A DNA stretch of 64,000 bases from a virus (lineage: Duplodnaviria > Heunggongvirae > Uroviricota > Caudoviricetes). The stretch is from IMG/VR virus record IMGVR_UViG_3300035659_001474, positions 21,110 to 85,109 of that record; one strand, 5' to 3'. Made by a program: the position numbers and the translations under genes. Shown one piece after another: positions 12,443 through 40,856 of the stretch. Position 1 is the first letter of the stretch. The number at the start of each line of letters is the position of its first letter. Below the pieces are notes generated by a model. That model did not search any database. It worked only from the letters and a program-made list of their open reading frames with translations, and was not told the DNA's origin.

Positions 12443-12474
12443 ATAGATATAATCAGTTGAAAAAGCTATGAAAA

Positions 12475-12547
12475 TGCCTCGAGCCGGATTCGAACCGACA
12501 ACACGCAGATCTAGAAGCTGCTGTTCCACCAATTGAACTATCGAGGC
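12475..12547 (-). tRNA. tRNA with anticodon CUA (amber suppressor); isotype not assignable
   Basis: Manual fold has a perfect 7-bp acceptor stem (GCCTCGA/TCGAGGC), a D arm with GG, the anticodon loop TT-CTA-GA, a 5-nt variable loop, the T loop TTCGAAT and discriminator A. CCA is not encoded. Confidence 0.8.
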
Positions 12548-12554
12548 ATTCTCT

Positions 12555-12860
12555 TCATGCAAGTGGTAGAGATTTGAAAATCTCACCAGTGTCATAGCAA
12601 GCCATAGCTGTTGGTCTATTCTCCTGATCTGGTTCAATAAAAGTCGTAGACTGTTTATTTTGCAGACATAAGAGACTTGACCATTGCTCAATTCCACTTG
12701 CAAAACGGACACCTAAAAATATCAAATGCCCATTATTCCACTGATGAAATATTTCAGGATATCTCAGTGCAAAAGCTGCCAATGCATGAGCACCCTGCAC
12801 ACAACGATATGTTTCATCCAGATCACTACGCACAAGCACATACATCTTTGGCTTGTCCAT
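12555..12860 (-). CDS. PTH2-type (archaeal/eukaryotic-type) peptidyl-tRNA hydrolase-like protein
   Basis: KMYVLVRSDLDETYRCVQGAHALAA matches the PTH2 motif KMVLVVRxDLxMGKGKIAAQCSHAA. The start is probably the internal MDKPKM; the ORF track gives 12555..12938. Confidence 0.5.
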   Translation of the reverse strand: MDKPKMYVLVRSDLDETYRCVQGAHALAAFALRYPEIFHQWNNGHLIFLGVRFASGIEQWSSLLCLQNKQSTTFIEPDQENRPTAMACYDTGEIFKSLPLA

Positions 12861-13119
12861 GTTGGATCTCCTGGATGAATTGTTGAACAATGTCCATGTT
12901 CGGTTCATTACCTTCACGAGGCTTCTCAATGCACTCATACGGCGTTCCTCTCAGAATGCAGTAAGCAATATGCTTGAGCCGAATATGTGATTTCATTATG
13001 TGCAATTGACATTGTTTTAATGCGCTTGCGGTAGTGTGAGGTTTTGAAAGTTCGACTTTAGACTGTCGAATCTCGAGGGCTTTAGTCTTGAGTTCATTCT
13101 TAAGAATTGTCAAATCCAT
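12826..13119 (-). CDS. hypothetical protein
   Basis: ORF track. Confidence 0.3.
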   Translation of the reverse strand: MDLTILKNELKTKALEIRQSKVELSKPHTTASALKQCQLHIMKSHIRLKHIAYCILRGTPYECIEKPREGNEPNMDIVQQFIQEIQHGQAKDVCACA

Positions 13120-13214
13120 GATATACTCCTGTTTTATTGTTGTTCGTTGACAGACAATTAACCTAGAAGTATATCAGGAGGTGCTCTTATTAGCACCTAT
13201 GTGAAGCCACTAAT

Positions 13215-13391
13215 CTACAACATAGCGACATCCTTTTTAATGAGTTCTATATCATCATCAAACCAACAGCGAGTCTCATTCATTGAATCTTGCACTACAA
13301 CGACACCACTTGCATGATCAATTTCTTTGATCACACCTGTTTTGTCAAGCTTGACATTCTTGACACAATCATTGATGCTGTAGAACTTCAT
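13215..13391 (-). CDS. small hypothetical ORF (58 aa, MKFYSINDCVKN...)
   Basis: Manual translation of a gap not covered by the ORF track. Confidence 0.2.
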   Translation of the reverse strand: MKFYSINDCVKNVKLDKTGVIKEIDHASGVVVVQDSMNETRCWFDDDIELIKKDVAML

Positions 13392-13394
13392 ACA

Positions 13395-13778
13395 TTACTT
13401 TTTGACTGGAGCAGGGCAACCTTGCTGCTGTTCAATAACATCAGGCTCAGTCTTTACTGCTTCTGCATGAGGCGTATTGATGACTGCGCTTACGCTAGCG
13501 ACAATTTTCTCTTCAACTGTCGCAACCGGCACTGGTATTTCAACACACTTTGATTGGGCCGGACTACAACGCAAACACATTGAATTCGTGCATCTTTCAG
13601 TATGCTCATGCTCAGTTGCATGATCACATGCGATATATGGTTTGTCAGTTTTGTTTTTACCAGCAACAGCTGTCTTGAGTATTCCGCATGTCTTAACATT
13701 CTCACAGATAACCATTTCTCTACTCCTTGTAAATAATTGAAAGTTTCTTAACTTATACTTAATCATGCTAATTATCAA
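13395..13778 (-). CDS. Cys/His-rich hypothetical protein
   Basis: ORF track. Contains CDHATEHEHTERCTNSMCLRCS. Confidence 0.35.
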   Translation of the reverse strand: MIISMIKYKLRNFQLFTRSREMVICENVKTCGILKTAVAGKNKTDKPYIACDHATEHEHTERCTNSMCLRCSPAQSKCVEIPVPVATVEEKIVASVSAVINTPHAEAVKTEPDVIEQQQGCPAPVKK

Positions 13779-13783
13779 TGAAA

Positions 13784-13854
13784 GCCACTAGGAGGATGCG
13801 AGCCCCCGACCGACTGCTTACGAAGCAGTTGCTCTACCAGCTGAGCTATAGTGG
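13784..13854 (-). tRNA. tRNA-Thr (anticodon CGU)
   Basis: Manual fold has acceptor GCCACTA/TAGTGGC, a D loop with GG, the anticodon loop TT-CGT-AA and the T loop CTCGCAT. Confidence 0.8.
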
Positions 13855-13867
13855 CAATTTCAAAAAC

Positions 13868-13942
13868 TGGAGACGGCGGGGAGAATCGGACTCCCGGTAT
13901 CGGTTTTGCAGACCGAGGCTTTAACCACTTAGCTACGCCGTC
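13868..13942 (-). tRNA. tRNA-Cys (anticodon GCA), CCA encoded
   Basis: Manual fold has acceptor GACGGCG/CGCCGTC, the anticodon loop CT-GCA-AA, the T loop GTCCGATTC and a 3' TCCA. Confidence 0.85.
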
Positions 13943-13956
13943 GCATTAATAGCTTT

Positions 13957-14181
13957 TCATCTGTGCATTCCACATTTCATCACAATTTCTGCACAGCTTG
14001 CAACTATCATTGCAAAATAGTCAAATGATTCAAATTCTTTTACTTTAAGTTCATCAAGTTTGCTTAGTATTTTTATTACTTGATGTTGTTCAAATAGTAA
14101 TGGTATCTGTTTAGATTTAGTGCCACAGTGTATACACATTTGTGACATATCATTCACTGGACTGAAAATTACAGATGCCAT
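13957..14181 (-). CDS. hypothetical protein
   Basis: ORF track. Confidence 0.3.
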   Translation of the reverse strand: MASVIFSPVNDMSQMCIHCGTKSKQIPLLFEQHQVIKILSKLDELKVKEFESFDYFAMIVASCAEIVMKCGMHR

Positions 14182-14227
14182 TTTGTTTTCTACAATGAAG
14201 TCTATCTATCCACATAGTATGTCAAAA

Positions 14228-14319
14228 TGGCGGAGAATACAGGATTCGAACCTGTGGAGGTTTTTAAAGTCCTCACTACGTTAGCACCATAGAGCCTTAA
14301 ACCACTCGGCCAATTCTCC
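14228..14319 (-). tRNA. tRNA-Ser (anticodon GCU), type II with a long variable arm, CCA encoded
   Basis: Manual fold has acceptor GGAGAAT/ATTCTCC, a 3-bp D stem, the anticodon loop GT-GCT-AA, a long variable stem (GTGAGG...CCTCCAC) and the T loop TTCGAAT. Confidence 0.85.
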
Positions 14320-14655
14320 GTGCTGAATATGTCGCTTTTCTTGAATTGTTTTTTCATCGAAGTATTTTCTTGGATTACCACATCCCATGCATGAGCAAAG
14401 TTTCGTCGTATGTCTATGACGTCGTTCAGATTTTGTCACCCATTCAGGATGTTGCAATTTCGTAAGCTGACTGTAAAAGTTGACTACACGTTTCTTACTC
14501 TTCTTGACTCCAACAAGAAAACGTTCTTTCCTGTTCACTGGATGTGACATGATGACTCCTTTTGTTAGCGCCACTAAGTGCGCGTTCATGTGGATGCCAT
14601 CATGTACTCCTTTCAGTGTATTTGTCTGTAAAACAATTGCCGCAAGCACTGTCAT
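14281..14655 (-). CDS. doubtful ORF whose C-terminus is a translation of tRNA-Ser
   Basis: The ORF ends ...GELAEWFKALWC, which lies inside the tRNA. Any real coding part would be shorter, or the ORF is spurious. Confidence 0.2.
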   Translation of the reverse strand: MTVLAAIVLQTNTLKGVHDGIHMNAHLVALTKGVIMSHPVNRKERFLVGVKKSKKRVVNFYSQLTKLQHPEWVTKSERRHRHTTKLCSCMGCGNPRKYFDEKTIQEKRHIQHGELAEWFKALWC

Positions 14656-14679
14656 TAAATCGGTTGATTAGCAAATTAA

Positions 14680-14951
14680 CTGGCGAGAAGGGACTCGAAC
14701 CCCCAACCATCTGGTTACACTTATCCACATATTTTTATGTGGCGTGGACTTTCTCTTCACCTTGTCTATTACTAGATTTAGGTGCACCGTGTAAAGTCTC
14801 TACACATAAGAGCTTTTTTTACTCTCTTGCTCGGGATTGCCATAGATAGATTCCTTAGGTTTCCCCGACTTAGCGGCGTGTTCATCTAAATATTTCTATT
14901 TAGAGCTGCGTTTACCCACAGCCAGATGCTCTGCCATTGAGCTACTCGCCA
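14680..14951 (-). tRNA. tRNA interrupted by a group I intron in the anticodon loop. Exon 1 is 14918..14951 and exon 2 is 14680..14717. The best reading is tRNA-Asn (GUU); tRNA-Thr (UGU) is the alternative.
   Basis: The 5' half reads TGGCGAG-TA-GCTCAATGGCAGAGC-A-TCTGG-CTGT. The 3' half reads TAA-CCAGA-TGGTT-GGGGGTTCGAGTCCCTT-CTCGCCA-G. The acceptor pairs perfectly (TGGCGAG/CTCGCCA) and the anticodon stem is TCTGG/CCAGA. The splice site follows a U, and the intron ends in G. Confidence 0.7.
14718..14917 (-). ncRNA. group I self-splicing intron (IC3-like, tRNA anticodon-loop type)
   Basis: The intron contains GGGGAAACCTAAGG, a GGCAATCCCGAGCAAG Q-like element, a GTGTAGAGACTTTACACGG R/P7-like element, CCTAAATCTAGTAATAGACAAGG and GAAAGTCCACG. 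All are close to the Azoarcus and Anabaena tRNA intron cores. A 6-bp P1 can form between exon GGCUGU and intron GCAGCU. Confidence 0.7.
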
Positions 14952-14974
14952 ATAATTTCAAAGAACTATCAAAG

Positions 14975-15050
14975 TGGTGGCTGCGTCCGAAGTTGAATCG
15001 GAGGCCTCTTGTGCTTCAAACAAGCGCTCTACCGACTGAGCTACACAGCC
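14975..15050 (-). tRNA. tRNA-Phe (anticodon GAA), CCA encoded
   Basis: Manual fold has acceptor GGCTGTG/CGCAGCC, D arm GCTCAGTCGGTAGAGC, the anticodon loop TT-GAA-GC and the T loop TTCAACT. Confidence 0.85.
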
Positions 15051-25031: not shown

Positions 25032-25230
25032 TTCTTACTCGATCACAATGATTCAAAAACTTCTTGAGAATGTCTACATTTTGTTTACGTTTGTTATTCT
25101 CATAATAAGACAATAGCGGTTCTGACTCTCCAATAGCAATAGCAATGTCTGCTAAAGTTAAGTTCAAAGATTGACGCATAGTCTTCATTTGTTGACCTAT
25201 ATCACCACGAATGTCGATTTGAATTTTCAT
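25021..25230 (-). CDS. XRE-family helix-turn-helix transcriptional regulator
   Basis: MRQSLNLTLADIAIAIGESEPLLSYYENNKRK matches an HTH_3 pattern. Confidence 0.5.
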   Translation of the reverse strand: MKIQIDIRGDIGQQMKTMRQSLNLTLADIAIAIGESEPLLSYYENNKRKQNVDILKKFLNHCDRVRNAG

Positions 25231-25799
25231 ACTTCCCAGTCAAAACTTGAAGCTGGCGAATGATATGTGATCGTTGGTCCTAGTTTTATGACTTGACCAA
25301 TATCGACTTTTGTCAGAATCAAAGAATGAGTTGCCACTATAATTTGACAATACTGTGACTGCTCGACTAACATGTCACGAAGTTTCACTTGATTCCACGG
25401 TGAAATACCATTTTCAGGCTCATCCAGCAAAGCCAAGTGCTTGTTGTCTTTTGGAATTTTCTTAATCATATCAGTACAGATCATTAAACATTGACCATGC
25501 GACATCCATAGCATGTGCGCTTCAAAGGCAGTGTCAACTCTATGTCTTACTCTTGGATTCATATGTTCAGAATCAAAATAATAGGATTGCAGTTTTTTGT
25601 CACTTGATTCCGAAAGTCGTGCTCTAAATTGCATAACGCTATCAGCTTTACGACTCAATGACTCTAAAATAGTAGATTTGCCACTACCATTTTCACCAAC
25701 TAGAAAATTGATTTGTTTGTCAAACTTGATCTGTTTGCCATTGAGCAATTTGACACGATCACATTTAGTTATCATTATACTTTGTAAGTGCATTTTCAT
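25227..25799 (-). CDS. small ABC-type/AAA_21-like ATPase
   Basis: Walker A GENGSGKST, Walker B LALLDEPENGIS and an H-loop ATHS. Confidence 0.55.
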   Translation of the reverse strand: MKMHLQSIMITKCDRVKLLNGKQIKFDKQINFLVGENGSGKSTILESLSRKADSVMQFRARLSESSDKKLQSYYFDSEHMNPRVRHRVDTAFEAHMLWMSHGQCLMICTDMIKKIPKDNKHLALLDEPENGISPWNQVKLRDMLVEQSQYCQIIVATHSLILTKVDIGQVIKLGPTITYHSPASSFDWEV

Positions 25800-28324: not shown

Positions 28325-28738
28325 CTATAGTATTACGTCAGAATATCTTATCAATGCATTAAGAATCTCGCTGTAACCGCCTGAATGACCGTCTTCATAG
28401 GCCTTGCCCATAGCTTTATCAGCTTTGGCATGACCTTTAAGACCTACAAAATCAATTGCATCATCATTGAATTTGTCAGGATGATCTTCATAATAGCCAG
28501 CAGAAATGCGTTCCCAAATATCTCCTGAGTCATACTTACGCTGTCTTTCCTTTTCAACGCACTCAGGACATCGATCAATGTAATTGCAGTTGAGTCTAAG
28601 CGGTGTTCCCTCAACATGCCAGCCTAGTTTTCTTGCTTCATCAAATGTCGCAGTTGTGATACTTGCGCCGCACTTACAACCAATCGTATACGTTTTGTTC
28701 TCACGAATCATAACGTCCTCCTGGAATGAATAAGTCAT
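28325..28738 (-). CDS. hypothetical Zn-binding protein
   Basis: CKCG...CPEC. Confidence 0.4.
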   Translation of the reverse strand: MTYSFQEDVMIRENKTYTIGCKCGASITTATFDEARKLGWHVEGTPLRLNCNYIDRCPECVEKERQRKYDSGDIWERISAGYYEDHPDKFNDDAIDFVGLKGHAKADKAMGKAYEDGHSGGYSEILNALIRYSDVIL

Positions 28739-31292: not shown

Positions 31293-32702
31293 TTAGCTCT
31301 TCTTGACTTCAGGTTTTTCTACAATTGCAAGTTTCTCAGCTACTTGTCCCAAGTATTCCGGCAATTTCATACCGGCCATGTTGAAGAGGTCTTGCAATGG
31401 AGGAACCGATCCAAGCATTCCGGAAAGGAAATTAGCTGTCGTCGGTTTGCCGTTTCCTGCACCATTTCCCATACCGTCCCAAACAGTAACCTTATCAATC
31501 TTGATGCCCTTAATAGCTTCAACTTGAATTCTGATGATTTCAGGCAACTTATCGACGATCATCAACATTGCTGCTTGTTGAGCCTGTAGTGGACTACTAC
31601 CAGTTGCTGCAACAATCTCTTTCAAACCTTCGGCTTGTCTAACTAACATTTCTTTAAGCCCTCTTGCTTGAGCTTCAAGGTTAGCATAAGTTGCATCAGC
31701 TTGGCCTCTTGCTTCAAGACGCAATTTCTCAGCCTGAGCACCTGCTGCAATCTCAATCTTCTTTCGATCAATTTCAGCCTTGACAACTTCATTAGCTGTC
31801 TGCGTCGCTCTTTCTCTATCAGCACGAGCAGCTTCAGCAATCTGTTCAGCTGCATATGCTTCCTGTAATGCCTTAGCATTTGCAACTTTCTCTGCTGCAA
31901 TGGCTGCTCGTTCTGCTTCAGCTTTCTTCTGCCGCATGTCTGACGTCGAATTAGCAACAGTGACTTGAGCTGTATTCTCACCTTCGACAGCTGTTGCATT
32001 AGCGCTTGCTACATTCACTCTCTTATCTTTGTCGGCATTTGCCTGACCAATAGCTCCGTCACGGTCCTTCTCTGCAACATCTTTCTTAGCTTTATTAAGT
32101 GCTTCAGCTGCAGCCTTTTGACCTAATGACTTGATATAGCCGGATTCGTCTTGAATATCAGTAATATTGACATTGATCAATCTCAAACCGATCTTCTCAA
32201 GTTCGACTTCTACATTCTTATAGATATTCTCTAAAAACTTGTCTCGATCGGCATTGATCTCTTCAATGTCCATCATTGCTACTGACAAACGAAGTTGACC
32301 GAATATGATCTCCTTTGCTATACCTTGTATCTCAGCTGGTTGAAGTCCCAATAGACGTTCAGCAGCAGCTGTCATTATCTCAGGTTTTGTAGATATACCT
32401 ACTGTGAAATTTGAAGGCACATCAACTCGAATATTCTGCTTACTCAATGCATTTTGCAGTGGTACTTCAATTTGCATTGGCGTAAGACTCAAATACGCAA
32501 AGTCTTGAATGATAGGCCACACAAATGCTGCACCACCATGAACACACTTTGAAGTACTTCCCTTTGCTACTTTACCATACACTATCAAGATCTTATCTGA
32601 CGGACACTTCTTGTACCTCGTAATGACAGAAATGAAAAGTACAAACAAAACAATGACACCAGCAGCTGCACTGATTAACCAATACATGTTAACCCCTTTC
32701 AA
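31293..32702 (-). CDS. flotillin-like SPFH/band-7 domain protein
   Basis: An N-terminal TM segment, an SPFH core and a long Ala/Glu-rich coiled coil (AEAERAAIAAEKVANAKALQEAYAAEQIAEAARA...), as in YqiK/flotillin. Confidence 0.7.
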   Translation of the reverse strand: MKGVNMYWLISAAAGVIVLFVLFISVITRYKKCPSDKILIVYGKVAKGSTSKCVHGGAAFVWPIIQDFAYLSLTPMQIEVPLQNALSKQNIRVDVPSNFTVGISTKPEIMTAAAERLLGLQPAEIQGIAKEIIFGQLRLSVAMMDIEEINADRDKFLENIYKNVEVELEKIGLRLINVNITDIQDESGYIKSLGQKAAAEALNKAKKDVAEKDRDGAIGQANADKDKRVNVASANATAVEGENTAQVTVANSTSDMRQKKAEAERAAIAAEKVANAKALQEAYAAEQIAEAARADRERATQTANEVVKAEIDRKKIEIAAGAQAEKLRLEARGQADATYANLEAQARGLKEMLVRQAEGLKEIVAATGSSPLQAQQAAMLMIVDKLPEIIRIQVEAIKGIKIDKVTVWDGMGNGAGNGKPTTANFLSGMLGSVPPLQDLFNMAGMKLPEYLGQVAEKLAIVEKPEVKKS

Positions 32703-33267
32703 CGATTAAAGTGTTGTTTTGAATACTTACGACTTTGACTTGTGAACCAGATGAAATTAATTCCTTAGCAGTCATTGCATTAAGTTCTCGAACTTGATTT
32801 TGAATTATGACATTGACTTTTCCTATGCCAATCATATTTGGAGGTATAGTCAAATAGACAGTTGCTGATTTTCCGATAGCTTCTTGTATATTGACATTAC
32901 CGCTACTTACCATTTTAGTCATCAAATAGAAAAATCCAGCAACAATCACAGCAAATATGCTGCCGATTACAATTGATATTGTTGTGACTAGAATAGGTTC
33001 GTTCAATATTCCTTTTGCATGGATGAGTGCTATTCCGCTCCAACCAAGCATCGTAAAGAATGCCACTAGTGATCGAATGCTTAGTAATTGGAAATGAGAT
33101 TGCGTGTCATCATGACCAGTAGACACATCATGATGCAAATCAACAGAATCATGTGATAGACCGGCAAAAGCCATAGCTGTCTGAATGAGTAAGAGTGTAC
33201 TAGCTATGACTGCAATGAACCAATAAACATGCTCAAACATTGACATGTTTGACCACCATGCATTCAT
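32689..33267 (-). CDS. NfeD-like membrane protein (YqiJ-like partner of flotillin)
   Basis: A multi-TM N-terminus plus a C-terminal beta-rich OB-like segment (GKVNVIIQNQVRE...VKVVSIQNNTLIVERG). It overlaps the flotillin gene start. Confidence 0.5.
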   Translation of the reverse strand: MNAWWSNMSMFEHVYWFIAVIASTLLLIQTAMAFAGLSHDSVDLHHDVSTGHDDTQSHFQLLSIRSLVAFFTMLGWSGIALIHAKGILNEPILVTTISIVIGSIFAVIVAGFFYLMTKMVSSGNVNIQEAIGKSATVYLTIPPNMIGIGKVNVIIQNQVRELNAMTAKELISSGSQVKVVSIQNNTLIVERG

Positions 33268-33295
33268 GCAGCCCTCCTTTTGAAATTTTACACAG

Positions 33296-34021
33296 CTACA
33301 CTGCTATTATCTTCAATTTTCTTCTTATCAATTTGACGTCCATTAATCTTCTAGTAATAGTCATTCGTTTTTGTTTTATCTTTTTTCCCTTATTTAATTT
33401 GACACGACTACTAATTAGCAGTCTTGTTTTTAAAGAATGTGTTTTACCAAAAAAATTATTATTTTCTCCTCTTCGATTTAAACTCATTTTCTTTCTAGTT
33501 TCTAAAGAATGCCTAAATCCTTTTACTGAAGCTCTAATTTTTGCTTTAGTTTCTTCAGACACTATTCTAGTCTTATTAGATTCAATAATTCGTTGTCTAT
33601 GTCGTTTAGTGAGCTTTTTACCATAAAATGGATTATTTGAACCGTTTCTTTCAACTGTCGCAAGTAAACCTTGACCTCCATCAGTTCTATTTACTAGTGG
33701 CCCTTTATTCATGTCAGCACGACCAATTTGTCTTATTAAAGAGATTTCTACTTTGCAACTTTTATTATCAGTAAGACCATGACGTAATATAGTAATAATG
33801 GGTTGTTTTCCTGATCGCAGAATTTTTTTAATTTTATTTATTTTGTGATTACGTATTGAAAAGTTTAATTGTTTTTTTGCACTTTGTAAATGACTTTTAT
33901 ATCGTTCATTAATACCTTTACCAATGTAAAATGGTTCATATAAAAAACAAATACTTCGATATGTATATTGCCCAGGTTTATTAGGATTCAAATATGCATA
34001 AACATAAAACTCTTTTTTCAT
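33296..34021 (-). CDS. GIY-YIG homing endonuclease with NUMOD repeats
   Basis: YVYAYLNP...PFYIGKG (GIY-YIG), then repeated SEETKAKIRASVKG / ETRKKMSLNRRGENN (NUMOD3-like). Confidence 0.8.
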   Translation of the reverse strand: MKKEFYVYAYLNPNKPGQYTYRSICFLYEPFYIGKGINERYKSHLQSAKKQLNFSIRNHKINKIKKILRSGKQPIITILRHGLTDNKSCKVEISLIRQIGRADMNKGPLVNRTDGGQGLLATVERNGSNNPFYGKKLTKRHRQRIIESNKTRIVSEETKAKIRASVKGFRHSLETRKKMSLNRRGENNNFFGKTHSLKTRLLISSRVKLNKGKKIKQKRMTITRRLMDVKLIRRKLKIIAV

Positions 34022-34281
34022 TATATTCGTAACATTACATCTTCAATTTGATATACTAAATCGACAAATTCTGGTCGTCTTTTAATTTCCATTGTTTTTC
34101 CTAAAGTTATCGATAATGTTTGTGGTACTTGAATGCGCTTAATAATTTGTCCAGGATTTGAACTCATAATAAAAATGTCATCACCTAAATAAACTGCCTC
34201 AGCGATATCATGATAAGTTTGATTGACATTTTTCAATTCAATAATGTCACACAAATCTGTGTTTACAAATTGTACAGCCAT
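34021..34281 (-). pseudogene. C-terminal remnant of a NitT/TauT-family ABC ATPase (SsuB/TauB-like); Walker A/B region absent
   Basis: TYHDIAEAVYLGDDIFIMSSNPGQIIKRIQV matches the SsuB C-terminus ([23 protein letters not shown]). The ORF is only 86 aa, and the permease gene abuts it upstream with a 2-nt gap. Confidence 0.55.
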
Positions 34282-34283
34282 GA

Positions 34284-35078
34284 TTACCTAATGTATTTAT
34301 ATTTGAATAGTAATCTATCAATGGACTCTAGTACTTTGTCTTGTAAGAACCCAACCATGATTATGACAATCAATAAAGCAAACACTAGGTCAGATTTTCC
34401 TTGACGTCCAGCTAAAAACACTAGTGGTCCAATACCTCGTGTAGCATTGACCATCTCGGCTACTATTATGTATGTCCAACTTATAGCAACAAGCACTTTG
34501 ATGTCGTCAGATATCTTAGACATTGCAGCAGGTATAAACACATATCGTATTCTCTGCCATAACGATGCACCAAGTGTAACAGCTGTCTGATCATATATGT
34601 TATCAACTTCATTAATACGTTGTATGACTGTCGGTATTAAATATACAATAATTCCAACTGCTAAAAACTGAATCTTCATATTGTTGTCAATACCAAACCA
34701 AGCCATGAATAGGCCAATAACAGCTGTAAGCGGTAAGAACCTTATTGCGTTGACATATTTACTAAACAAACTGTTGACTACTGGAAACAATCCCATTAAA
34801 AATCCAGCAATGAGTGACACAATGACAGCTTCTGCATAACCCGCAACATTCAAGTACATCGAGAAAAACAAATTCCTGACTAATTCATAATGAAAATGTA
34901 ATTGCCCAAATGCAGTAAACACCTTGAATGGTGAGGGTAATATTTGTGGTACTACCCATTTGCAAGCAGTGATGACTATCCATATTGTCATTAGCGAACA
35001 GAATCCAATCAGTCCTATGACAATATTTATCGTCTTACTTAGTTGACCGCGTAGCTCAAATAGATCAGATATTTTCAT
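34284..35078 (-). CDS. ABC transporter permease (SsuC/TauC-like)
   Basis: A multi-TM protein with an EAA-like loop (TLGASLWQRIRYVFIPAA). Confidence 0.65.
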   Translation of the reverse strand: MKISDLFELRGQLSKTINIVIGLIGFCSLMTIWIVITACKWVVPQILPSPFKVFTAFGQLHFHYELVRNLFFSMYLNVAGYAEAVIVSLIAGFLMGLFPVVNSLFSKYVNAIRFLPLTAVIGLFMAWFGIDNNMKIQFLAVGIIVYLIPTVIQRINEVDNIYDQTAVTLGASLWQRIRYVFIPAAMSKISDDIKVLVAISWTYIIVAEMVNATRGIGPLVFLAGRQGKSDLVFALLIVIIMVGFLQDKVLESIDRLLFKYKYIR

Positions 35079-35088
35079 GATAGTACCG

Positions 35089-36666
35089 TTAGTTAGCTTG
35101 AATCATTTCAAACGCTGTGTTACGATTTTGTGCTCGTCCAGCTTCAGTGTCATTTAAAGTAATAGGCTTATCAGAACCATTACCAACAACAATGAATCTG
35201 TTCTTGTCGAATGTGTATGTTGTCACCAAATAATCTACAACAGCTTGAGCACGTTTCTTAGAAAGTGACCGATTAAAATCATCAGATCCAATATTGTCAG
35301 TATTTCCTTCAACTCTTACTCTGAATCCTGCTAAACCCCTTGCGTCATCAGAAAAGTCTCGACTAATAATGTATTTAGCTTCGTCAGATAATGTATAACT
35401 TCCTGATGCAAAATTGATGATGATTCTTTTGGTCGCAACAGCTGGCATTGTCTTCATCTCTGTAGTCGGCTTAGTAAATGTTTCTGATTCTTCAGCAGCA
35501 TGTTCAGGCCCTGTAAATTTACTGCTAAGTGATTGTAGAATACTGATGTCAGAAATATCACGCCAAGGTTGTACATTATCCGGTGCATAGCCAATCTTAT
35601 TGAAAGCTGCAGCCATTTTGGTATAAAGATCTTCACCTTTGACACATTTACAATTAACAGGTAAGATGTTGAAAAAGTTTACATTGTCACCATAAGTACA
35701 AAATCTTGCATTATCAAAATTCATCAATGCTTCAGATACATTAAAGCATTTTGACATTAATGCTGTTGCATTTTTTCTAACTTCAATTGATGAATTTATT
35801 TCTTGTGCACCTTTCAACCAACCTTCTGTAAAAGCCTGAATGTCTTTATATCGTGACTTGAGAAATGCATCTTTGGTATAGAAAATATCTGCAATAACAT
35901 ATTTAGCTTCTTTTGTGCTAATCAAAACTTTTGAACCAGGTATGGCAGAAATACAATCTTCATCATCTGGACTCCATACAAGAGCAGCATCAACTTTGCC
36001 ATTCTTATAGGCAGATGCTGCATCAATTGCCGTATTCATTGATACCACACCGTCTTTAATGTCTGACCATGCGACTTGACCACTTTCAATAGCTCTAATC
36101 AAAAGTGTCTGTGATGGTGAGCTTATTGCAACAGCTATCTTCTTGCCTTTCAAGTCAGCAATGGAATTGATGCCTGGTCGCACAACCATTTTATCTCCGC
36201 CGCGAGACCAGTCTATTTGCATGAACACTTTGGGCTTAAATTGTGAAAAGTTCGGAAGTTCAGTAGAAAGTACATCAGCTGTATTACAAATAATATCGAC
36301 GCGATCTGTTGACCAAGCTATTCTTGAATTACCAAAATCGTCCATCTTAACGAATTGTACTAGCAAACCAAATTCTTTGTAATACCTTGAAGTCTGTGAT
36401 GGTTCAAATCCACCATTCATATATACACCAGGTGCAAATCCTGGCCAAGTGTTAATTGCAACAAGCAATGGTTTTTGTCCACCAACCATAATCGGTTTTG
36501 GCATATCAGCAGTTTGTACATTGTTAGATGGTGCAACTGCTTGAGTGATTTTGCCAAGTGCACCACTTTTCTTTAGTGAATTGATTCCAAAAAATGTACC
36601 AACTAGTACTCCTGCAATAAGAATCACCCAAACGCCCGGCTGAATCACAAACTTCCTACTACTCAT
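35089..36666 (-). CDS. membrane-anchored NMT1/SsuA-like substrate-binding protein fused to a C-terminal OmpA-like domain
   Basis: An N-terminal TM segment; KKIAVAISSPSQTLLIRAIESG and GKVDAALVWSP as SBP motifs; and an OmpA C-like segment RVEGNTDNIGSDDFNRSLSKKRAQAVVDYL. Confidence 0.6.
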   Translation of the reverse strand: MSSRKFVIQPGVWVILIAGVLVGTFFGINSLKKSGALGKITQAVAPSNNVQTADMPKPIMVGGQKPLLVAINTWPGFAPGVYMNGGFEPSQTSRYYKEFGLLVQFVKMDDFGNSRIAWSTDRVDIICNTADVLSTELPNFSQFKPKVFMQIDWSRGGDKMVVRPGINSIADLKGKKIAVAISSPSQTLLIRAIESGQVAWSDIKDGVVSMNTAIDAASAYKNGKVDAALVWSPDDEDCISAIPGSKVLISTKEAKYVIADIFYTKDAFLKSRYKDIQAFTEGWLKGAQEINSSIEVRKNATALMSKCFNVSEALMNFDNARFCTYGDNVNFFNILPVNCKCVKGEDLYTKMAAAFNKIGYAPDNVQPWRDISDISILQSLSSKFTGPEHAAEESETFTKPTTEMKTMPAVATKRIIINFASGSYTLSDEAKYIISRDFSDDARGLAGFRVRVEGNTDNIGSDDFNRSLSKKRAQAVVDYLVTTYTFDKNRFIVVGNGSDKPITLNDTEAGRAQNRNTAFEMIQAN

Positions 36667-36693: not shown

Positions 36694-37713
36694 TTATTTA
36701 GCAAATAGGTCACTAAATTTATTTGGTCGGTCGGCTTCTTCAGAAACTATTTGACCAATGTCATTTGTTTTAATTGTCGGTACAGACGGTTGATCAGATC
36801 CAAGCAACCATGAATCAGCCTTCTTCTCAAATTCTTCGAGCATCTGCATGCCTTTTTCTTGTAGCACACCGTTGCGCACATCAATATTGTCCATAATTGT
36901 CTCTGCTGATTCAAGCATAAATTCAATTTCACCAACTTTCATGCCCAAATCATTATTGATATACTCTGCAGTCTCTTCAAACAATGCTCTTTCATCTTTA
37001 TTACCCTTAAGAGCATTCTCTGCTGACTTCATTGCACTATAAGCAGCCCTAATAGATATCCATTTGTCTTCCAACAACTTGACCTCTTGCTGTTTATCGG
37101 TCAACAATATTGAAGCATTCTCATACAGTTTATCTAGTACTTTATAATAGATTTGTAGTCGTGAAGCAATTGCTGTCAATTCAACTGCAGCACCTTGCAA
37201 TCGACCAGCTTGATTTGCACTTAAAATTGATTCTCGTTTTATGTTCAATTCTTTTGCTTTTTGTGCGGCAATCAAATTATCTTTAGCTTCTTCTTTGTAA
37301 GTTGAAATCTTCCGTAGTAAATTACTAAGAATTTGTTTTAATTTACTTCGTTCTCCTTCAAATACTTCCAACCGATGCTGACCTCTTTTAATCAATATCT
37401 TCATGACAGCAATTGGATCTGTTTTAATGATGAACGTGTTAATGATCTTTGTCAAAAACAGCTTATATGCTATTGACATTTTGAGTCGCAGATCACTTTG
37501 CGTAAACGGAAATATCAGAATACCGGCAACAATCAACATTGCTGCAAGTGTAATCGTATTGCCCGCCAATATCAAAAGCCAAGGCAAAATCTTGGCCCAA
37601 AAGATCAAACCACCGCCGGCCAAAAACAAAGCAGAAATGACAATGCCAACTTTGCCTTCTGGCTTCTCCCAAAAAGACTTCAAAGCTTTTTTTCCTTCAG
37701 GCATCAAATCCAT
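36694..37713 (-). CDS. membrane-anchored coiled-coil protein (two N-terminal TM helices)
   Basis: ORF track; hydrophobic N-terminus and a long heptad-rich C-terminus. Confidence 0.45.
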   Translation of the reverse strand: MDLMPEGKKALKSFWEKPEGKVGIVISALFLAGGGLIFWAKILPWLLILAGNTITLAAMLIVAGILIFPFTQSDLRLKMSIAYKLFLTKIINTFIIKTDPIAVMKILIKRGQHRLEVFEGERSKLKQILSNLLRKISTYKEEAKDNLIAAQKAKELNIKRESILSANQAGRLQGAAVELTAIASRLQIYYKVLDKLYENASILLTDKQQEVKLLEDKWISIRAAYSAMKSAENALKGNKDERALFEETAEYINNDLGMKVGEIEFMLESAETIMDNIDVRNGVLQEKGMQMLEEFEKKADSWLLGSDQPSVPTIKTNDIGQIVSEEADRPNKFSDLFAK

Positions 37714-38364
37714 TTACTTTCCTCCTGTTAAATACTGTTTGATCTTATCGACATCATTGTTTATTCTGTCAACAAACACTTTCAACGTGGCATAGAAATT
37801 GTTCTTGACTTTGTCAACGTCAGCTGTACTAGTCGCAATCTCATTTTGCATTGCGACTTTCTGTGACTGCAAAGTATTCATCTTATCAGTGATCGACTTG
37901 ATTTGTTCAGCCATTGTCTGAATCTGTTTATCAATGTCTTGTATCTGACTTTGTTTGCCGCCAATTTCAGATGAAACGTGCGTATTCAAAGCATCAACGA
38001 ATTCAGTTTCTTTTTGCTTCAAAACTTTCAAATATGACTGCGCTGAGCTTAATATGGACGGTATTGTTGCATCCATTGACGATGCCATTGCACCAACTGA
38101 TTGAAATCGTAGTGCTTCTGTAGGAATTACTGAAGCTTGAGCATCAAGAGCCCTAGCAAATTCAAAGTAATCAAACCCTGGCAAGTTAGCAGCAGCAAGC
38201 GCAGCAGTCAACTGTTCTTTTATTGCTGCATCTTCTTGACCAATAATAGATGATGTTTGCACAACTGGTTGAGGAACTTGTTGAGTTACGATTTGTTTAA
38301 CTTCTATAGGTTCATCTACAACTTTGAAAAACAAACCACCAATAGATGAAAGAGTCTTTTTCAT
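37714..38364 (-). CDS. coiled-coil hypothetical protein
   Basis: ORF track; Q/E/K-rich heptads. Confidence 0.4.
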   Translation of the reverse strand: MKKTLSSIGGLFFKVVDEPIEVKQIVTQQVPQPVVQTSSIIGQEDAAIKEQLTAALAAANLPGFDYFEFARALDAQASVIPTEALRFQSVGAMASSMDATIPSILSSAQSYLKVLKQKETEFVDALNTHVSSEIGGKQSQIQDIDKQIQTMAEQIKSITDKMNTLQSQKVAMQNEIATSTADVDKVKNNFYATLKVFVDRINNDVDKIKQYLTGGK

Positions 38365-39288: not shown

Positions 39289-40110
39289 TTATAATATCAT
39301 AAACTCAAAATTGAATCCCTTTTGTAAACAAGCAGTTCTTTTAATTTCATTTCTTTCTTGATGCAGTCTATATGACCATTTACTCTTAACTTCAATTATC
39401 TTATTTTGCGATTTAATAAAAATATCTGGAAAATATCTATGAATTTTAGACCGATATGTGTATAAGATTTTCCCAATGAATTTTCCTATATCATGAACAC
39501 CAATAACTAAATCTGATTCTTCAAACGTTTGTAAAAGTTGTGCAATTGCTCTATCTTCATATCCTTGTACTTTTACAATTTTTCCCGATGGAAGACTATA
39601 ATCTCTACTTTTAGAAATAAACATTCTACTAGCATTGCTTTCATTTTTCCAAAATTTAAGTTTGTCATTAGAAAGCTTAGCTATAACAACAGGATCTTTA
39701 TATGCATCTCTTAAAGCTTTAATTCTTTTCTTTCGACTTTTTTCATTGTTCCAGACTTTTCTCATTTGATCTGAACTAACCTTACGAACTTCTTTACTTT
39801 TGTCTTTATCATTATAAAATGCTGCTAAACTCTCTTTTATTTTACGTTTAACTTCAGGTTTATTCTGAATAATTTTACAAATAGCTCTATGTTTTTCTTT
39901 TATTTCTGGCTTATTTAACGCAGCCTTAATTGCTTTACGTTGTCGTCGTTTAACACTAGGCTTATTCATTGCTAATCTAGTTGCAGCACTGCGTTCTTCA
40001 TGATATTTGTCAGTCAACATATATATTGACTTACATTGTTTAGAACAATATTTTTTTACTTTGTTTGCTGTAATAAATTCTTTATTGCAGCCTTTACAAA
40101 TTCTAATCAT
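39289..40110 (-). CDS. NUMOD-repeat DNA-binding protein, putative free-standing homing endonuclease
   Basis: An N-terminal Zn finger (CKGCNKEF..CSKQC), repeated NKPEIKEKHRAI / NKPEVKRKIKESL NUMOD-like units, and an unassigned C-terminal domain. Confidence 0.35.
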   Translation of the reverse strand: MIRICKGCNKEFITANKVKKYCSKQCKSIYMLTDKYHEERSAATRLAMNKPSVKRRQRKAIKAALNKPEIKEKHRAICKIIQNKPEVKRKIKESLAAFYNDKDKSKEVRKVSSDQMRKVWNNEKSRKKRIKALRDAYKDPVVIAKLSNDKLKFWKNESNASRMFISKSRDYSLPSGKIVKVQGYEDRAIAQLLQTFEESDLVIGVHDIGKFIGKILYTYRSKIHRYFPDIFIKSQNKIIEVKSKWSYRLHQERNEIKRTACLQKGFNFEFMIL

Positions 40111-40856
40111 AAATCATACTTTCCATAATAGCAATATACACATTTATGAAAACAACGACTCCTGCTGCTCAACAATTCTTTTTTATTGCCAAGACATGCG
40201 CAACACAGTCTTTGTTTTGAGAATTTATCGATAAGCTGTACACCAAGTAATTCACAATCTTTAGCTGAAATACATCCCGTACATTCAAAATCAGGTTCAC
40301 CACATACTTCAGGTCGACCAAGTCTTTCCCATGCCTTTTTTCTTAACTTTAACGGTGCATGAAATGTCGTCCACGGCAATTCAACATCAATATCTTTGAA
40401 TCGTTTTTTAACATGGTCATATTGATCGATGAATGACACTCTCACTCGAGTCTTAAATAGTTTCTGTGCTTGACACAAGACATTATACGCAGTATCAATA
40501 CCAGCATCTGTAGGAACTATCGGATCAATGCGTAATACTATTCTTTCTGGCCCTAACAATTTACACAGTTCTTCAAATCCGAGTAGTGCACAATCAACAT
40601 CAGGCACATTTGGCTCGATTATAGATCTAGCAAAACCGGTAATTGTTGTGTGTACGATGATATTTGGAAATCTAGGGTAGACTTCTTCACATTTGCCATC
40701 TTCAATAATGACTTTGATATGATCGAAGAGTTTTAGAGGATCTTTAGTAATCAAAATAGCAGGGTTACCGTCAACGACCCACTGTGTCCACTGACAATCA
40801 ATTGCAGGATCACCACGTTCTGTAATACCTATTTGATCACTCACTAACGAGCTCAA
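40107..40856 (-). CDS. hypothetical protein with a C-terminal Cys cluster
   Basis: ORF track; CTGC...CCAC...CFHKCVYC. Confidence 0.4.
   Translation of the reverse strand: MSSLVSDQIGITERGDPAIDCQWTQWVVDGNPAILITKDPLKLFDHIKVIIEDGKCEEVYPRFPNIIVHTTITGFARSIIEPNVPDVDCALLGFEELCKLLGPERIVLRIDPIVPTDAGIDTAYNVLCQAQKLFKTRVRVSFIDQYDHVKKRFKDIDVELPWTTFHAPLKLRKKAWERLGRPEVCGEPDFECTGCISAKDCELLGVQLIDKFSKQRLCCACLGNKKELLSSRSRCFHKCVYCYYGKYDL

What the first reader, a model, noticed from the sequence alone, without database searches (positions are those of the whole stretch)
34021..36666. An ABC-importer-like operon in which the ATPase is reduced to an 86-aa C-terminal stub and the binding protein is fused to an OmpA-like domain
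The gene order on the minus strand is: a membrane-anchored SsuA/NMT1-type substrate-binding protein with a C-terminal OmpA peptidoglycan-binding domain, then an SsuC-type permease, then only the last third of an SsuB-type ATPase (from ...VTHDxxEAV onward; no Walker A or B). The ATPase stub begins 2 nt after the permease stop. It ends where a GIY-YIG homing-endonuclease gene begins. Either the transporter is being degraded, perhaps through an endonuclease-associated deletion, or the binding-protein/permease pair has been repurposed and no longer needs its own ATPase. The fusion to OmpA is itself unusual.
Basis: partly seen in the sequence, partly recalled or inferred. Interest (0 to 1): 0.55.

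Follow-up and report, generated by a model that had tools for sequence, protein, structure and literature searches.

The report
Internally deleted ATPase in phage transporter cassette
A large phage carries a five-gene membrane-stress/transporter cassette already described in bacteria, and in this one phage the cassette's ATPase gene has recently lost its whole catalytic core through an in-frame deletion, so it is an ordinary gene remnant rather than a new kind of transporter.

Summary
The ORFs are real and in the stated order.

(1) The 86-aa ORF is not simply the last third of an ATPase. It is the native first 23 residues (…IIELKNVNQTY) joined in frame to the H-loop and C-terminus (HDIAEAVYLGD…). 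About 186 codons holding Walker A, Q-loop, LSGGQ, Walker B and D-loop are deleted. Junction: 34213|34212.

(2) The OmpA fusion is not unusual. It is the standard architecture of a widespread cassette: coiled-coil protein, TM-anchored PspA/IM30-like protein, SBP+OmpA, permease, ABC ATPase. The cassette occurs in at least 592 bacterial species genomes, Lak megaphages, Bacillus phage G and many huge-phage contigs. Ravi et al. 2024 described its core.

Of 119 distinct related loci, 114 keep a full ATPase, so the deletion is a singleton. It looks recent: the permease, the SBP and the remnant all retain family-invariant residues. Both remnant pieces share their nearest relative with the permease. 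Relatives carry a short direct repeat (ATGAT) at both breakpoints.

An independent assembly reproduces the junction, and its contigs break exactly there with a k−1 overlap. That suggests a second allele in the sample. The adjacent GIY-YIG endonuclease gene is lineage-specific; a causal role for it is plausible but untested.

The parts
37714..38364 (-). Coiled-coil protein (216 aa), first gene of the conserved cassette
   Evidence: Homologues lie upstream of the cassette in 50 phage or metagenome loci and in most genome loci. Only coiled-coil-type matches were found. No detectable homology to the PspA-like partner (hhalign probability 9%).
36694..37713 (-). Membrane-anchored PspA/IM30 (ESCRT-III-like) protein, 339 aa
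   Evidence: 19 of 31 homologues hit Pfam PF04012 PspA_IM30, and sources name them 'phage shock protein A'. The AF2 model has an N-terminal TM hairpin plus a long helical hairpin at 100-235 with pLDDT around 90. The top Foldseek hits are CHMP1B, Vipp1, PspA and Snf7. Conserved upstream of the SBP in 62 loci.
35089..36666 (-). Solute-binding protein (NMT1/SsuA-type) with an N-terminal hydrophobic anchor or signal and a C-terminal OmpA-like peptidoglycan-binding domain, 525 aa; intact
   Evidence: Pfam OmpA E=1.5e-16 and NMT1 E=3.9e-8; NCBIfam SsuA_fam and ABC_peri_uca. 2 of 87 family-conserved columns differ, against a family median of 3. OmpA-domain residues N455, D457 and R472 are invariant across the family alignment.
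34284..35078 (-). TauC/SsuC-type ABC permease, 264 aa; intact, coupling loop retained
   Evidence: BPD_transp_1 E=2e-13; NCBIfam SaoP 4.7e-34 and TauC 1.2e-28. 2 of 72 conserved columns differ, against a median of 2. The coupling-loop region 'DQTAVTLGAS…IP' matches the family consensus.
34213..34281 (-). ATPase remnant, N-piece: native start codon and first 23 codons (MAVQFVNTDLCDIIELKNVNQTY)
   Evidence: Aligns to the N-termini of full-length family ATPases. 86% identical to L027. Weak profile match at HMM 22-40.
34021..34212 (-). ATPase remnant, C-piece: H-loop (HDIAEAVYLGD) to the native stop codon, 63 codons; deletion junction at 34213|34212
   Evidence: HMM 223-281, 58 bits. TauB 181-240. 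All covered family-invariant residues are retained. Logan contigs L026 and L107 overlap by exactly 30 nt starting at 34212.
33296..34021 (-). Free-standing GIY-YIG/NUMOD3 homing-endonuclease gene whose ATG overlaps the remnant's TAA
   Evidence: Pfam LEM-3_GIY-YIG 1.5e-11 and NUMOD3 1.2e-17. PHROG 314 homing endonuclease. Absent from all 106 related cassette loci. No group I intron in 32500-35500. Relatives are at most 37% identical and none sits next to this ATPase family.
31293..33267 (-). Context only: NfeD-like (32689-33267) and SPFH/flotillin (31293-32702) membrane proteins downstream
   Evidence: Pfam NfeD 6.3e-5 and Band_7 2.6e-28. Not syntenic with the cassette in relatives.

Best explanation
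The locus is one copy of a widespread five-gene envelope cassette: a coiled-coil protein, a TM-anchored PspA/IM30-like protein, a solute-binding protein fused to an OmpA-like peptidoglycan-binding domain, a TauC/SsuC-type permease and a TauB/SsuB-type ABC ATPase. Huge phages share this cassette with many bacteria.

In this phage lineage the ATPase gene has undergone a recent internal in-frame deletion of about 186 codons (about 560 nt). Codon 23 is now joined to the H-loop histidine. Walker A, Q-loop, the LSGGQ signature, Walker B and the D-loop are gone. The 86-aa product cannot bind or hydrolyse ATP and lacks the Q-loop/helical subdomain that normally engages the permease (inferred from established ABC transporter knowledge). 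ATP-driven transport by the phage-encoded set is therefore abolished, and the remnant is a young pseudogene.

The deletion most likely arose by recombination or slippage between short direct repeats. This is inferred from relatives, which carry '(Y/C)AT GAY' at both breakpoints. It may have followed a double-strand break, and the lineage-specific GIY-YIG endonuclease gene inserted directly after the ATPase stop codon is an obvious but unproven source of such a break. The other four genes are still intact because too little time has passed for decay. The sampled population probably still contains another allele at this site.

Shown: the anatomy, the singleton status, the intactness of the neighbours, and the reproducibility of the junction. 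Inferred: loss of function, the microhomology mechanism, endonuclease involvement, and polymorphism.
For: - Alignment with 14 full-length relatives, and then 57, shows the N-piece and C-piece flanking a clean gap that covers GxSGCGKS…LSGGQ…LLxDEP.
- A six-frame profile scan finds only HMM 22-40 and 223-281 in the window, and nothing in 11.7 kb of flanking sequence.
- 114 of 119 distinct related loci have a full ATPase after the permease. 41 of 80 genome loci show the complete five-gene order.
- The N-piece (86%), C-piece (59%) and permease (66%) share the nearest relative L027. Identity rankings correlate, Spearman 0.54, p=4e-6.
- L032 carries ATGAT at both breakpoint positions. L027, L033 and L035 have Y-[L/Y/F]-D on the left and T-H-D on the right.
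- At family-conserved columns the permease has 2/72 mismatches and the SBP 2/87, both at or below the family medians of 2 and 3. The remnant keeps all covered invariant residues.
- The junction is reproduced at 100% identity in a Logan assembly. Contigs L026 and L107 overlap by exactly 30 nt (k−1), beginning at the junction, and L107 then runs 5.75 kb unbroken.
- The endonuclease gene is absent from all related loci.
- The cassette is known in bacteria: Ravi et al. 2024, PMC11237479.
Against: - Only 64 kb of the contig was available, plus 11.7 kb of flanks; the contig is 128 kb and the genome is probably larger. A second ATPase gene elsewhere cannot be excluded.
- The deletion is in frame, and the remnant keeps its native start, its stop and its overlap with the endonuclease ATG. 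That is compatible with some retained role, for example translational coupling, although an in-frame outcome has a 1-in-3 chance anyway.
- The undeleted allele implied by the contig-break pattern was not recovered, and no branch is seen at the left breakpoint.
- The microhomology is inferred from relatives at about 60-66% protein identity, not from the true ancestor.
- The remnant has a unique 4-aa insertion (QTLS) that remains unexplained.
Confidence: 0.75

Rival explanations
1. Endonuclease-driven deletion and self-immunity. The adjacent GIY-YIG enzyme cleaves inside the conserved core of the ATPase gene. The break was repaired by microhomology-mediated end joining, removing the target site and leaving the endonuclease-carrying genome immune to its own enzyme. 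This is a specific version of the best explanation rather than a true alternative.
For: - The endonuclease gene abuts the remnant with an overlapping stop/start (ATAATG) and is absent from all 106 related loci.
- The ATPase gene is a recurrent target of selfish elements in this family. LAGLIDADG inteins sit in the P-loop in two other lineages.
- Short repeats lie at the breakpoints in relatives.
Against: - There is no information on the enzyme's cleavage site.
- None of 80 loci holding relatives of this endonuclease carries an ATPase of this family.
- Deletions between short repeats also arise by replication slippage without any endonuclease.
Confidence: 0.3
2. Functional repurposing. The PspA-like protein, SBP+OmpA and permease still work together without a phage ATPase. 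They would act either as a structural inner-membrane-to-peptidoglycan tether or by recruiting the host's orthologous ATPase. The 86-aa product might serve as an adaptor or simply as a translational-coupling leader for the endonuclease.
For: - SBP, permease, the PspA-like protein and the coiled-coil protein are all intact with normal conservation.
- The deletion is in frame.
- One other huge-phage contig (L002/L008) has no ATPase within 4.7 kb after the permease.
- Bacteria carry the same cassette, so a host ATPase could exist.
Against: - 114 of 119 relatives retain the ATPase, so the family normally needs it.
- The exact 86-aa form is found nowhere else.
- The remnant lacks the Q-loop/helical subdomain that contacts the coupling helix (established ABC transporter knowledge).
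- Intact neighbours are equally expected shortly after a recent deletion.
Confidence: 0.12
3. Assembly artefact or minor variant. The true dominant genome has a full-length ATPase, and the deletion path was chosen by the assembler or exists only in a defective subpopulation.
For: The Logan contigs break exactly at the junction with a k−1 overlap. This implies a second k-mer path entering there that is identical for at least 5.75 kb afterwards.
Against: - Two independent assemblies cross the junction identically: the JGI 128-kb contig and Logan L026.
- The junction 30-mer is unique in the window, so no repeat-induced collapse is expected.
- L026 is unbroken across the left breakpoint, so the deletion allele is the well-supported path.
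Confidence: 0.08

Closest known systems
PspA/Snf7-associated ABC transporter operon with a PBPb+OmpA solute-binding protein (Ravi et al. 2024, mSystems, PMC11237479; example OGG56892.1: PspA -> SIG+PBPB+OmpA -> TM(s) -> ABC-ATPase -> TM+Snf7 -> AAA+)
   Same: The core order is the same: a PspA-family protein, then a solute-binding protein fused to OmpA, then the permease, then the ABC ATPase. The proposed logic is also the same: OmpA binds peptidoglycan, the binding domain captures the transported solute, and there is a link to membrane remodelling.
   Different: - Here the PspA-like protein itself carries the N-terminal TM hairpin.
- A coiled-coil protein precedes it.
- No Snf7+AAA+ pair was seen next to the cassette.
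- The carrier is a large phage.
- In this copy the ATPase is internally deleted.
NitT/TauT-family type I ABC importers (TauABC, SsuABC, SaoABP)
   Same: The SBP is of NMT1/SsuA type. The permease matches SaoP, TauC and SsuC, and the ATPase family matches SaoA, TauB and SsuB. The permease coupling loop is retained.
   Different: - All scores lie far below the NCBIfam equivalog cut-offs, so the substrate is unknown.
- The SBP is fused to OmpA.
- The operon is coupled to PspA.
- The window copy has no catalytic ATPase.
Free-standing GIY-YIG homing endonucleases of large phages (T4 Seg/I-TevI-like enzymes)
   Same: It has a GIY-YIG catalytic domain plus NUMOD3 DNA-binding motifs, a sporadic lineage-specific presence, and an insertion between genes next to a highly conserved gene. 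Knowledge of the T4 Seg genes is from memory.
   Different: The target site and activity are unknown. It is not inside a group I intron. Its start overlaps the stop of a deleted gene.
Cassette copies in deposited huge phages: Prevotella Lak megaphages, 735-kb uncultured phages LR756501/3, Bacillus phage G gp243-gp250
   Same: The SBP+OmpA protein covers 87-97% of the query. Phage G also has a permease (gp243) and an ABC ATPase (gp245) nearby. PHROG 25518 covers the whole fused protein.
   Different: - Identity is only 28-38%.
- Those genomes are unannotated or labelled only 'OmpA/MotB domain'.
- Phage G has two SBP+OmpA paralogues and a different gene order.
- ATPase integrity was not inspected residue by residue in those records.

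Membership tests
Type I ABC importer, NitT/TauT family | Periplasmic solute-binding protein of the NMT1/SsuA/TauA type | tested here: met
   Pfam NMT1 E=3.9e-8; NCBIfam SsuA_fam 3.9e-12 and ABC_peri_uca 3.3e-15. All are below the equivalog cut-offs.
Type I ABC importer, NitT/TauT family | Permease with a BPD_transp_1 domain and an EAA-type coupling loop | tested here: met
   BPD_transp_1 E=2e-13. The loop 'DQTAVTLGAS…IP' equals the family consensus, and 2 of 72 conserved columns differ.
Type I ABC importer, NitT/TauT family | ATPase with Walker A, Q-loop, LSGGQ signature, Walker B, D-loop and H-loop | tested here: not met
   Only the H-loop and C-terminus (HMM 223-281) plus 23 N-terminal residues remain. 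All 54 family-conserved residues of the core are deleted. 114 of 119 relatives meet this feature.
PspA-associated SBP+OmpA ABC operon (Ravi et al. 2024) | PspA/IM30-family gene adjacent to the transporter genes | tested here: met
   19 of 31 homologues of the 339-aa protein hit PF04012. The fold search is topped by ESCRT-III, Vipp1 and PspA. The window protein itself falls below Pfam detection.
PspA-associated SBP+OmpA ABC operon (Ravi et al. 2024) | Solute-binding domain fused to a C-terminal OmpA-like peptidoglycan-binding domain | tested here: met
   Pfam OmpA 419-515 E=1.5e-16. N455, D457 and R472 are invariant across the family.
PspA-associated SBP+OmpA ABC operon (Ravi et al. 2024) | Membrane-anchored Snf7 and double AAA+ ATPase in the same operon, as in the published example | tested here: inconclusive
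   No Snf7 or AAA+ hit among the neighbours scanned. The coiled-coil protein shows no detectable PspA/Snf7 homology. The paper says these 'may occur' together, so they are not obligatory.
Free-standing GIY-YIG homing endonuclease | GIY-YIG catalytic domain plus a DNA-binding module (NUMOD3) | tested here: met
   PF22945 E=1.5e-11; NUMOD3 E=1.2e-17 over 2 stretches; PHROG 314.
Free-standing GIY-YIG homing endonuclease | Sporadic presence at a site that is empty in related genomes | tested here: met
   Absent from all 106 related cassette loci. Its own relatives are at most 37% identical and lie in unrelated contexts.
Free-standing GIY-YIG homing endonuclease | Site-specific cleavage of the endonuclease-less allele, and homing | not testable with these tools
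   Needs enzyme assays or co-infection crosses.
Intron-encoded endonuclease (group I intron) | A group I intron RNA fold surrounding the endonuclease ORF | tested here: not met
   The Rfam E-value scan of 32500-35500 gave only a sub-threshold miRNA-model hit, 27 bits against a cut-off of 63.

The most novel reading that the evidence does not exclude
The PspA-like/SBP+OmpA/permease cassette is a recurrent cargo of huge phages (Lak megaphages, phage G, 735-kb phages and hundreds of metagenomic contigs). It may stabilise or re-tether the host inner membrane to peptidoglycan during long infections, and that structural role would survive loss of the ATPase. On this reading, the window and L002/L008 would be natural experiments showing ATP-independent function, with the ATPase gene acting as a preferred landing pad for selfish elements (inteins and homing endonucleases).
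Probability: 0.1. Interest if true: 0.6.

Novelty: new member of a known kind. Interest (0 to 1): 0.27.

Why it matters
The specific finding matters little. It is a young pseudogene in one phage lineage, and the 'unusual' OmpA fusion is the normal architecture of a cassette already described in bacteria.

Two side results are of modest value:

1. This PspA-linked transporter cassette is a common but so far uncommented cargo of huge phages. The two huge-phage papers I checked do not mention it. This suggests that large phages manipulate host envelope homeostasis.
2. The cassette's ATPase gene repeatedly attracts selfish elements: P-loop inteins in two lineages and an adjacent endonuclease here. 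The exact k−1 contig break at the junction also hints that deleted and undeleted alleles coexist in one sample, which read mapping could test directly.

Tried and rejected
- **TAG recoding.** A CTA-anticodon tRNA is present, but all three genes stop at TAA and no in-frame TAG has long open frames on both sides.
- **Missing ATPase core relocated within the window.** tblastn and a six-frame profile scan found nothing. A 9-residue 'IDFVGLKGH' resemblance at 28430-28498, next to a Logan contig end, scored only 2 bits and is chance.
- **The 190-aa P-loop protein at 25227-25799 as a substitute ATPase.** It is an AAA_21/GajA/AriA-type protein, not a transporter NBD.
- **Mosaic origin of the C-piece through co-conversion with the endonuclease gene.** Both pieces track the permease phylogeny.
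- **Group I intron, or a hairpin at the junction.** There is no Rfam hit above threshold and the fold z-score is −1.17.
- **Defence-system membership.** PADLOC gave only generic coiled-coil, MotB and ABC matches.
- **Searches for the undeleted allele.** A homology search with the stub returned only the stub itself, and the junction 30-mer has no match in IMG/VR.
- **Other searches that found nothing useful.** Megablast of the region against deposited phages gave no match. Promoter and terminator scans were at chance level. Sequence-profile searches of the two upstream partners against the PDB gave only coiled-coil noise.
Full report
**1. Observation**

On the minus strand the window encodes, in order:
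- a 525-aa protein (35089-36666) with an NMT1/SsuA-type solute-binding region and a C-terminal OmpA domain;
- a 264-aa BPD_transp_1 permease (34284-35078) that best matches SaoP, TauC and SsuC;
- an 86-aa ORF (34021-34281);
- a 241-aa GIY-YIG/NUMOD3 endonuclease (33296-34021).

The permease ends in TAA and the 86-aa ORF starts 2 nt later. The ORF's TAA shares one base with the endonuclease ATG. A CTA-anticodon tRNA at 12474-12548 raised the possibility of TAG recoding. That does not affect this locus: the relevant stops are TAA, and no in-frame TAG in the window has long open frames on both sides.

**2. What the 86-aa ORF is**

I aligned it with full-length ATPases that follow the permease in related huge-phage contigs.
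- Residues 1-23 (MAVQFVNTDLCDIIELKNVNQTY) are the native N-terminus and first β-strand.
- Residues 24-86 begin at the H-loop histidine (HDIAEAVYLGD…) and run to the native C-terminus.
- Everything in between is absent: GxSGCGKS, Q-loop, LSGGQ, LLxDEP and the D-loop. All 54 family-conserved core residues fall in the gap.

Relative to the nearest relative L027, the gap is codons 25-210, about 186 codons, and it is in frame. A family profile matches only positions 22-40 (weakly) and 223-281 (58 bits). This is an internal deletion that keeps the original start and stop codons.

**3. How unusual the deletion is**

Protein-guided scans recovered 25 IMG/VR loci, 80 metagenome loci (of at least 498 hits) and 80 genome loci (of at least 592 hits).

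Among 119 distinct loci with at least 1 kb after the permease:
- 114 have a complete ATPase;
- 2 are cut by contig ends;
- 3 show none, and only L002/L008 has enough downstream sequence (4.7 kb) to be convincing.

Other variants are P-loop inteins (L012/L067; L030/31/37), one frameshift (L041) and one permease-ATPase fusion ORF (L058). The window's form is a singleton. A database search with the stub found only the stub itself, on a JGI contig of 128,327 nt.

**4. Recent, and in situ**

- The N-piece is 86% identical to L027, the C-piece 59% and the permease 66%. Identity rankings for the C-piece and the permease correlate (ρ=0.54, p=4e-6). Both pieces therefore descend from this lineage's own ATPase.
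- The permease differs at 2 of 72 family-conserved columns (median 2). The SBP+OmpA differs at 2 of 87 (median 3). The coupling loop equals the family consensus.
- The remnant keeps all covered invariant residues.

No decay is visible, as expected soon after a deletion.

**5. Mechanism of the deletion (inferred)**

Close relatives read Y-[L/Y/F]-D at the left breakpoint and T-H-D at the right. In L032 the pentanucleotide ATGAT occurs at both positions. Such short direct repeats are the usual substrate for replication slippage or microhomology-mediated end joining.

The GIY-YIG gene immediately downstream is absent from every related locus and is not intron-borne. It is therefore a lineage-specific insertion and a plausible source of a double-strand break. 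No data bear on its target, and none of its relatives lies next to this ATPase family.

**6. Reality of the junction, and possible polymorphism**

Two Logan contigs from SRR11721627 are 100% identical to the window. L026 crosses the junction and ends at 34183. L107 begins at 34212, the first base after the junction, and runs 5.75 kb unbroken. The two overlap by exactly 30 nt, which is k−1 for a k=31 assembler. The value of k is from my own knowledge of Logan. The 30-mer is unique in the window.

This geometry implies a third k-mer path that enters at the junction and is identical afterwards. The simplest candidate is another allele of the same phage, such as the undeleted gene. I could not recover that path. 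The absence of a branch at the left breakpoint is also unexplained.

**7. The cassette and the OmpA fusion**

The fused SBP+OmpA protein has more than 1,865 database relatives. NCBI names some of them 'phosphate ABC transporter substrate-binding/OmpA family protein'.

In genomes the order coiled-coil → ~340-aa TM protein → SBP+OmpA → permease → ATPase is seen in 41 of 80 loci. One of these is on a complete 3.8-Mb Bacteroidia chromosome, where it is flanked by an HtrA-type protease and an ECF sigma factor.

The ~340-aa partner is a membrane-anchored PspA/IM30 homologue:
- 19 of 31 homologues hit PF04012;
- the AF2 model has a long helical hairpin;
- the top fold hits are all ESCRT-III superfamily members.

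Ravi et al. 2024 (PMC11237479) describe the core PspA → SIG+PBPB+OmpA → TM(s) → ABC-ATPase, and propose that OmpA binds peptidoglycan while the binding domain captures the solute.

In phages the cassette occurs in Lak megaphages, the 735-kb phages LR756501/3, Bacillus phage G (gp243, gp245, gp249, gp250) and PHROG 25518. The two huge-phage papers I checked do not mention it. The fusion is therefore typical of the family, not unusual.

**8. Search for a substitute ATPase**

There is none in the window or in 11.7 kb of flanking sequence. The only other P-loop protein resembling ABC ATPases (25227-25799) is an AAA_21/GajA-type protein. The rest of the genome could not be examined.

**9. Verdict**

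This is a young, in-frame, loss-of-function deletion in the ATPase gene of a known, widespread PspA-linked SBP+OmpA ABC cassette carried by a large phage. It lies next to a lineage-specific homing-endonuclease gene.

It is a new member of a known kind, and the specific anomaly is ordinary gene decay. The residual interest lies in the cassette's unexplored role in huge phages, and in the ATPase gene as a hotspot for selfish elements.

Noticed in passing
window 12474-15050 (minus strand): A cluster of five tRNA genes includes one with anticodon CTA (amber-suppressor type; ARAGORN labels it tRNA-Pyl) at 12474-12548. No in-frame TAG with at least 100 stop-free codons on both sides exists in the window, so there is no sign of TAG recoding in these 64 kb.
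   Followed up: partly
L012:7036-9027 and L067; L030:1317-3569, L031:7811-10063, L037:3578-5830: In two related huge-phage lineages the cassette ATPase carries a LAGLIDADG intein inserted in the P-loop (GxSGCGK|C…VVHN|S). The resulting ORFs are 663 and 750 aa. The same gene therefore hosts selfish elements repeatedly.
   Followed up: partly
window 31293-33267 (minus strand): An NfeD-like protein and a 469-aa SPFH/flotillin protein lie directly downstream of the endonuclease gene. Together with the PspA-like protein they form a cluster of membrane-maintenance genes. The pair is not syntenic with the cassette in any related locus.
   Followed up: partly
window 28463 and 34212 (ends of Logan contig L107): L107 is bounded on one side exactly by the deletion junction. 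Its other end at 28463 falls inside a 137-aa ORF. Whether that end also marks a polymorphism or a recombination boundary was not examined.
   Followed up: no
window 25227-25799 (minus strand): A 190-aa protein has an ABC/SMC-type Walker A at its N-terminus and AAA_21 C-terminal motifs. Its best PADLOC matches are AriA, GajA and PtuA. It looks like a minimal OLD/ABC-like ATPase, which is unusual to find in a phage.
   Followed up: partly
window 39289-40856 (minus strand): A DUF7487 protein with a TnsA-like endonuclease N-terminal match (39289-40110) sits next to a DUF1848 protein (40107-40856). This may be another mobile endonuclease-type gene near the cassette.
   Followed up: no
L002/L008 (IMGVR_UViG_3300002220_000519), L041:948-1752, L058:512-2116: Other cassette variants exist: one huge-phage contig with no ATPase within 4.7 kb after the permease, one ATPase split by a frameshift, and one 534-aa ORF in which permease and ATPase are fused.
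   Followed up: partly
L188 (Bacillus phage G, NC_023719.1 171458-180963): Phage G infects a Gram-positive host yet encodes two SBP+OmpA paralogues (gp249, gp250), a permease (gp243) and an ABC ATPase (gp245), in a different order from the cassette described here.
   Followed up: no
L148:10123-12332 (Bacteroidia chromosome OZ252261.1): The chromosomal cassette copy is flanked by an HtrA/DegP-type protease (Trypsin_2+PDZ) and an ECF sigma factor. This fits an envelope-stress role for the cassette.
   Followed up: no
window 34060-34140 (remnant C-piece): The remnant has a 4-aa insertion (QTLS, in '…IQVPQTLSITLGK…') that is absent from all 57 full-length family ATPases compared. Its origin is unexplained.
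   Followed up: no
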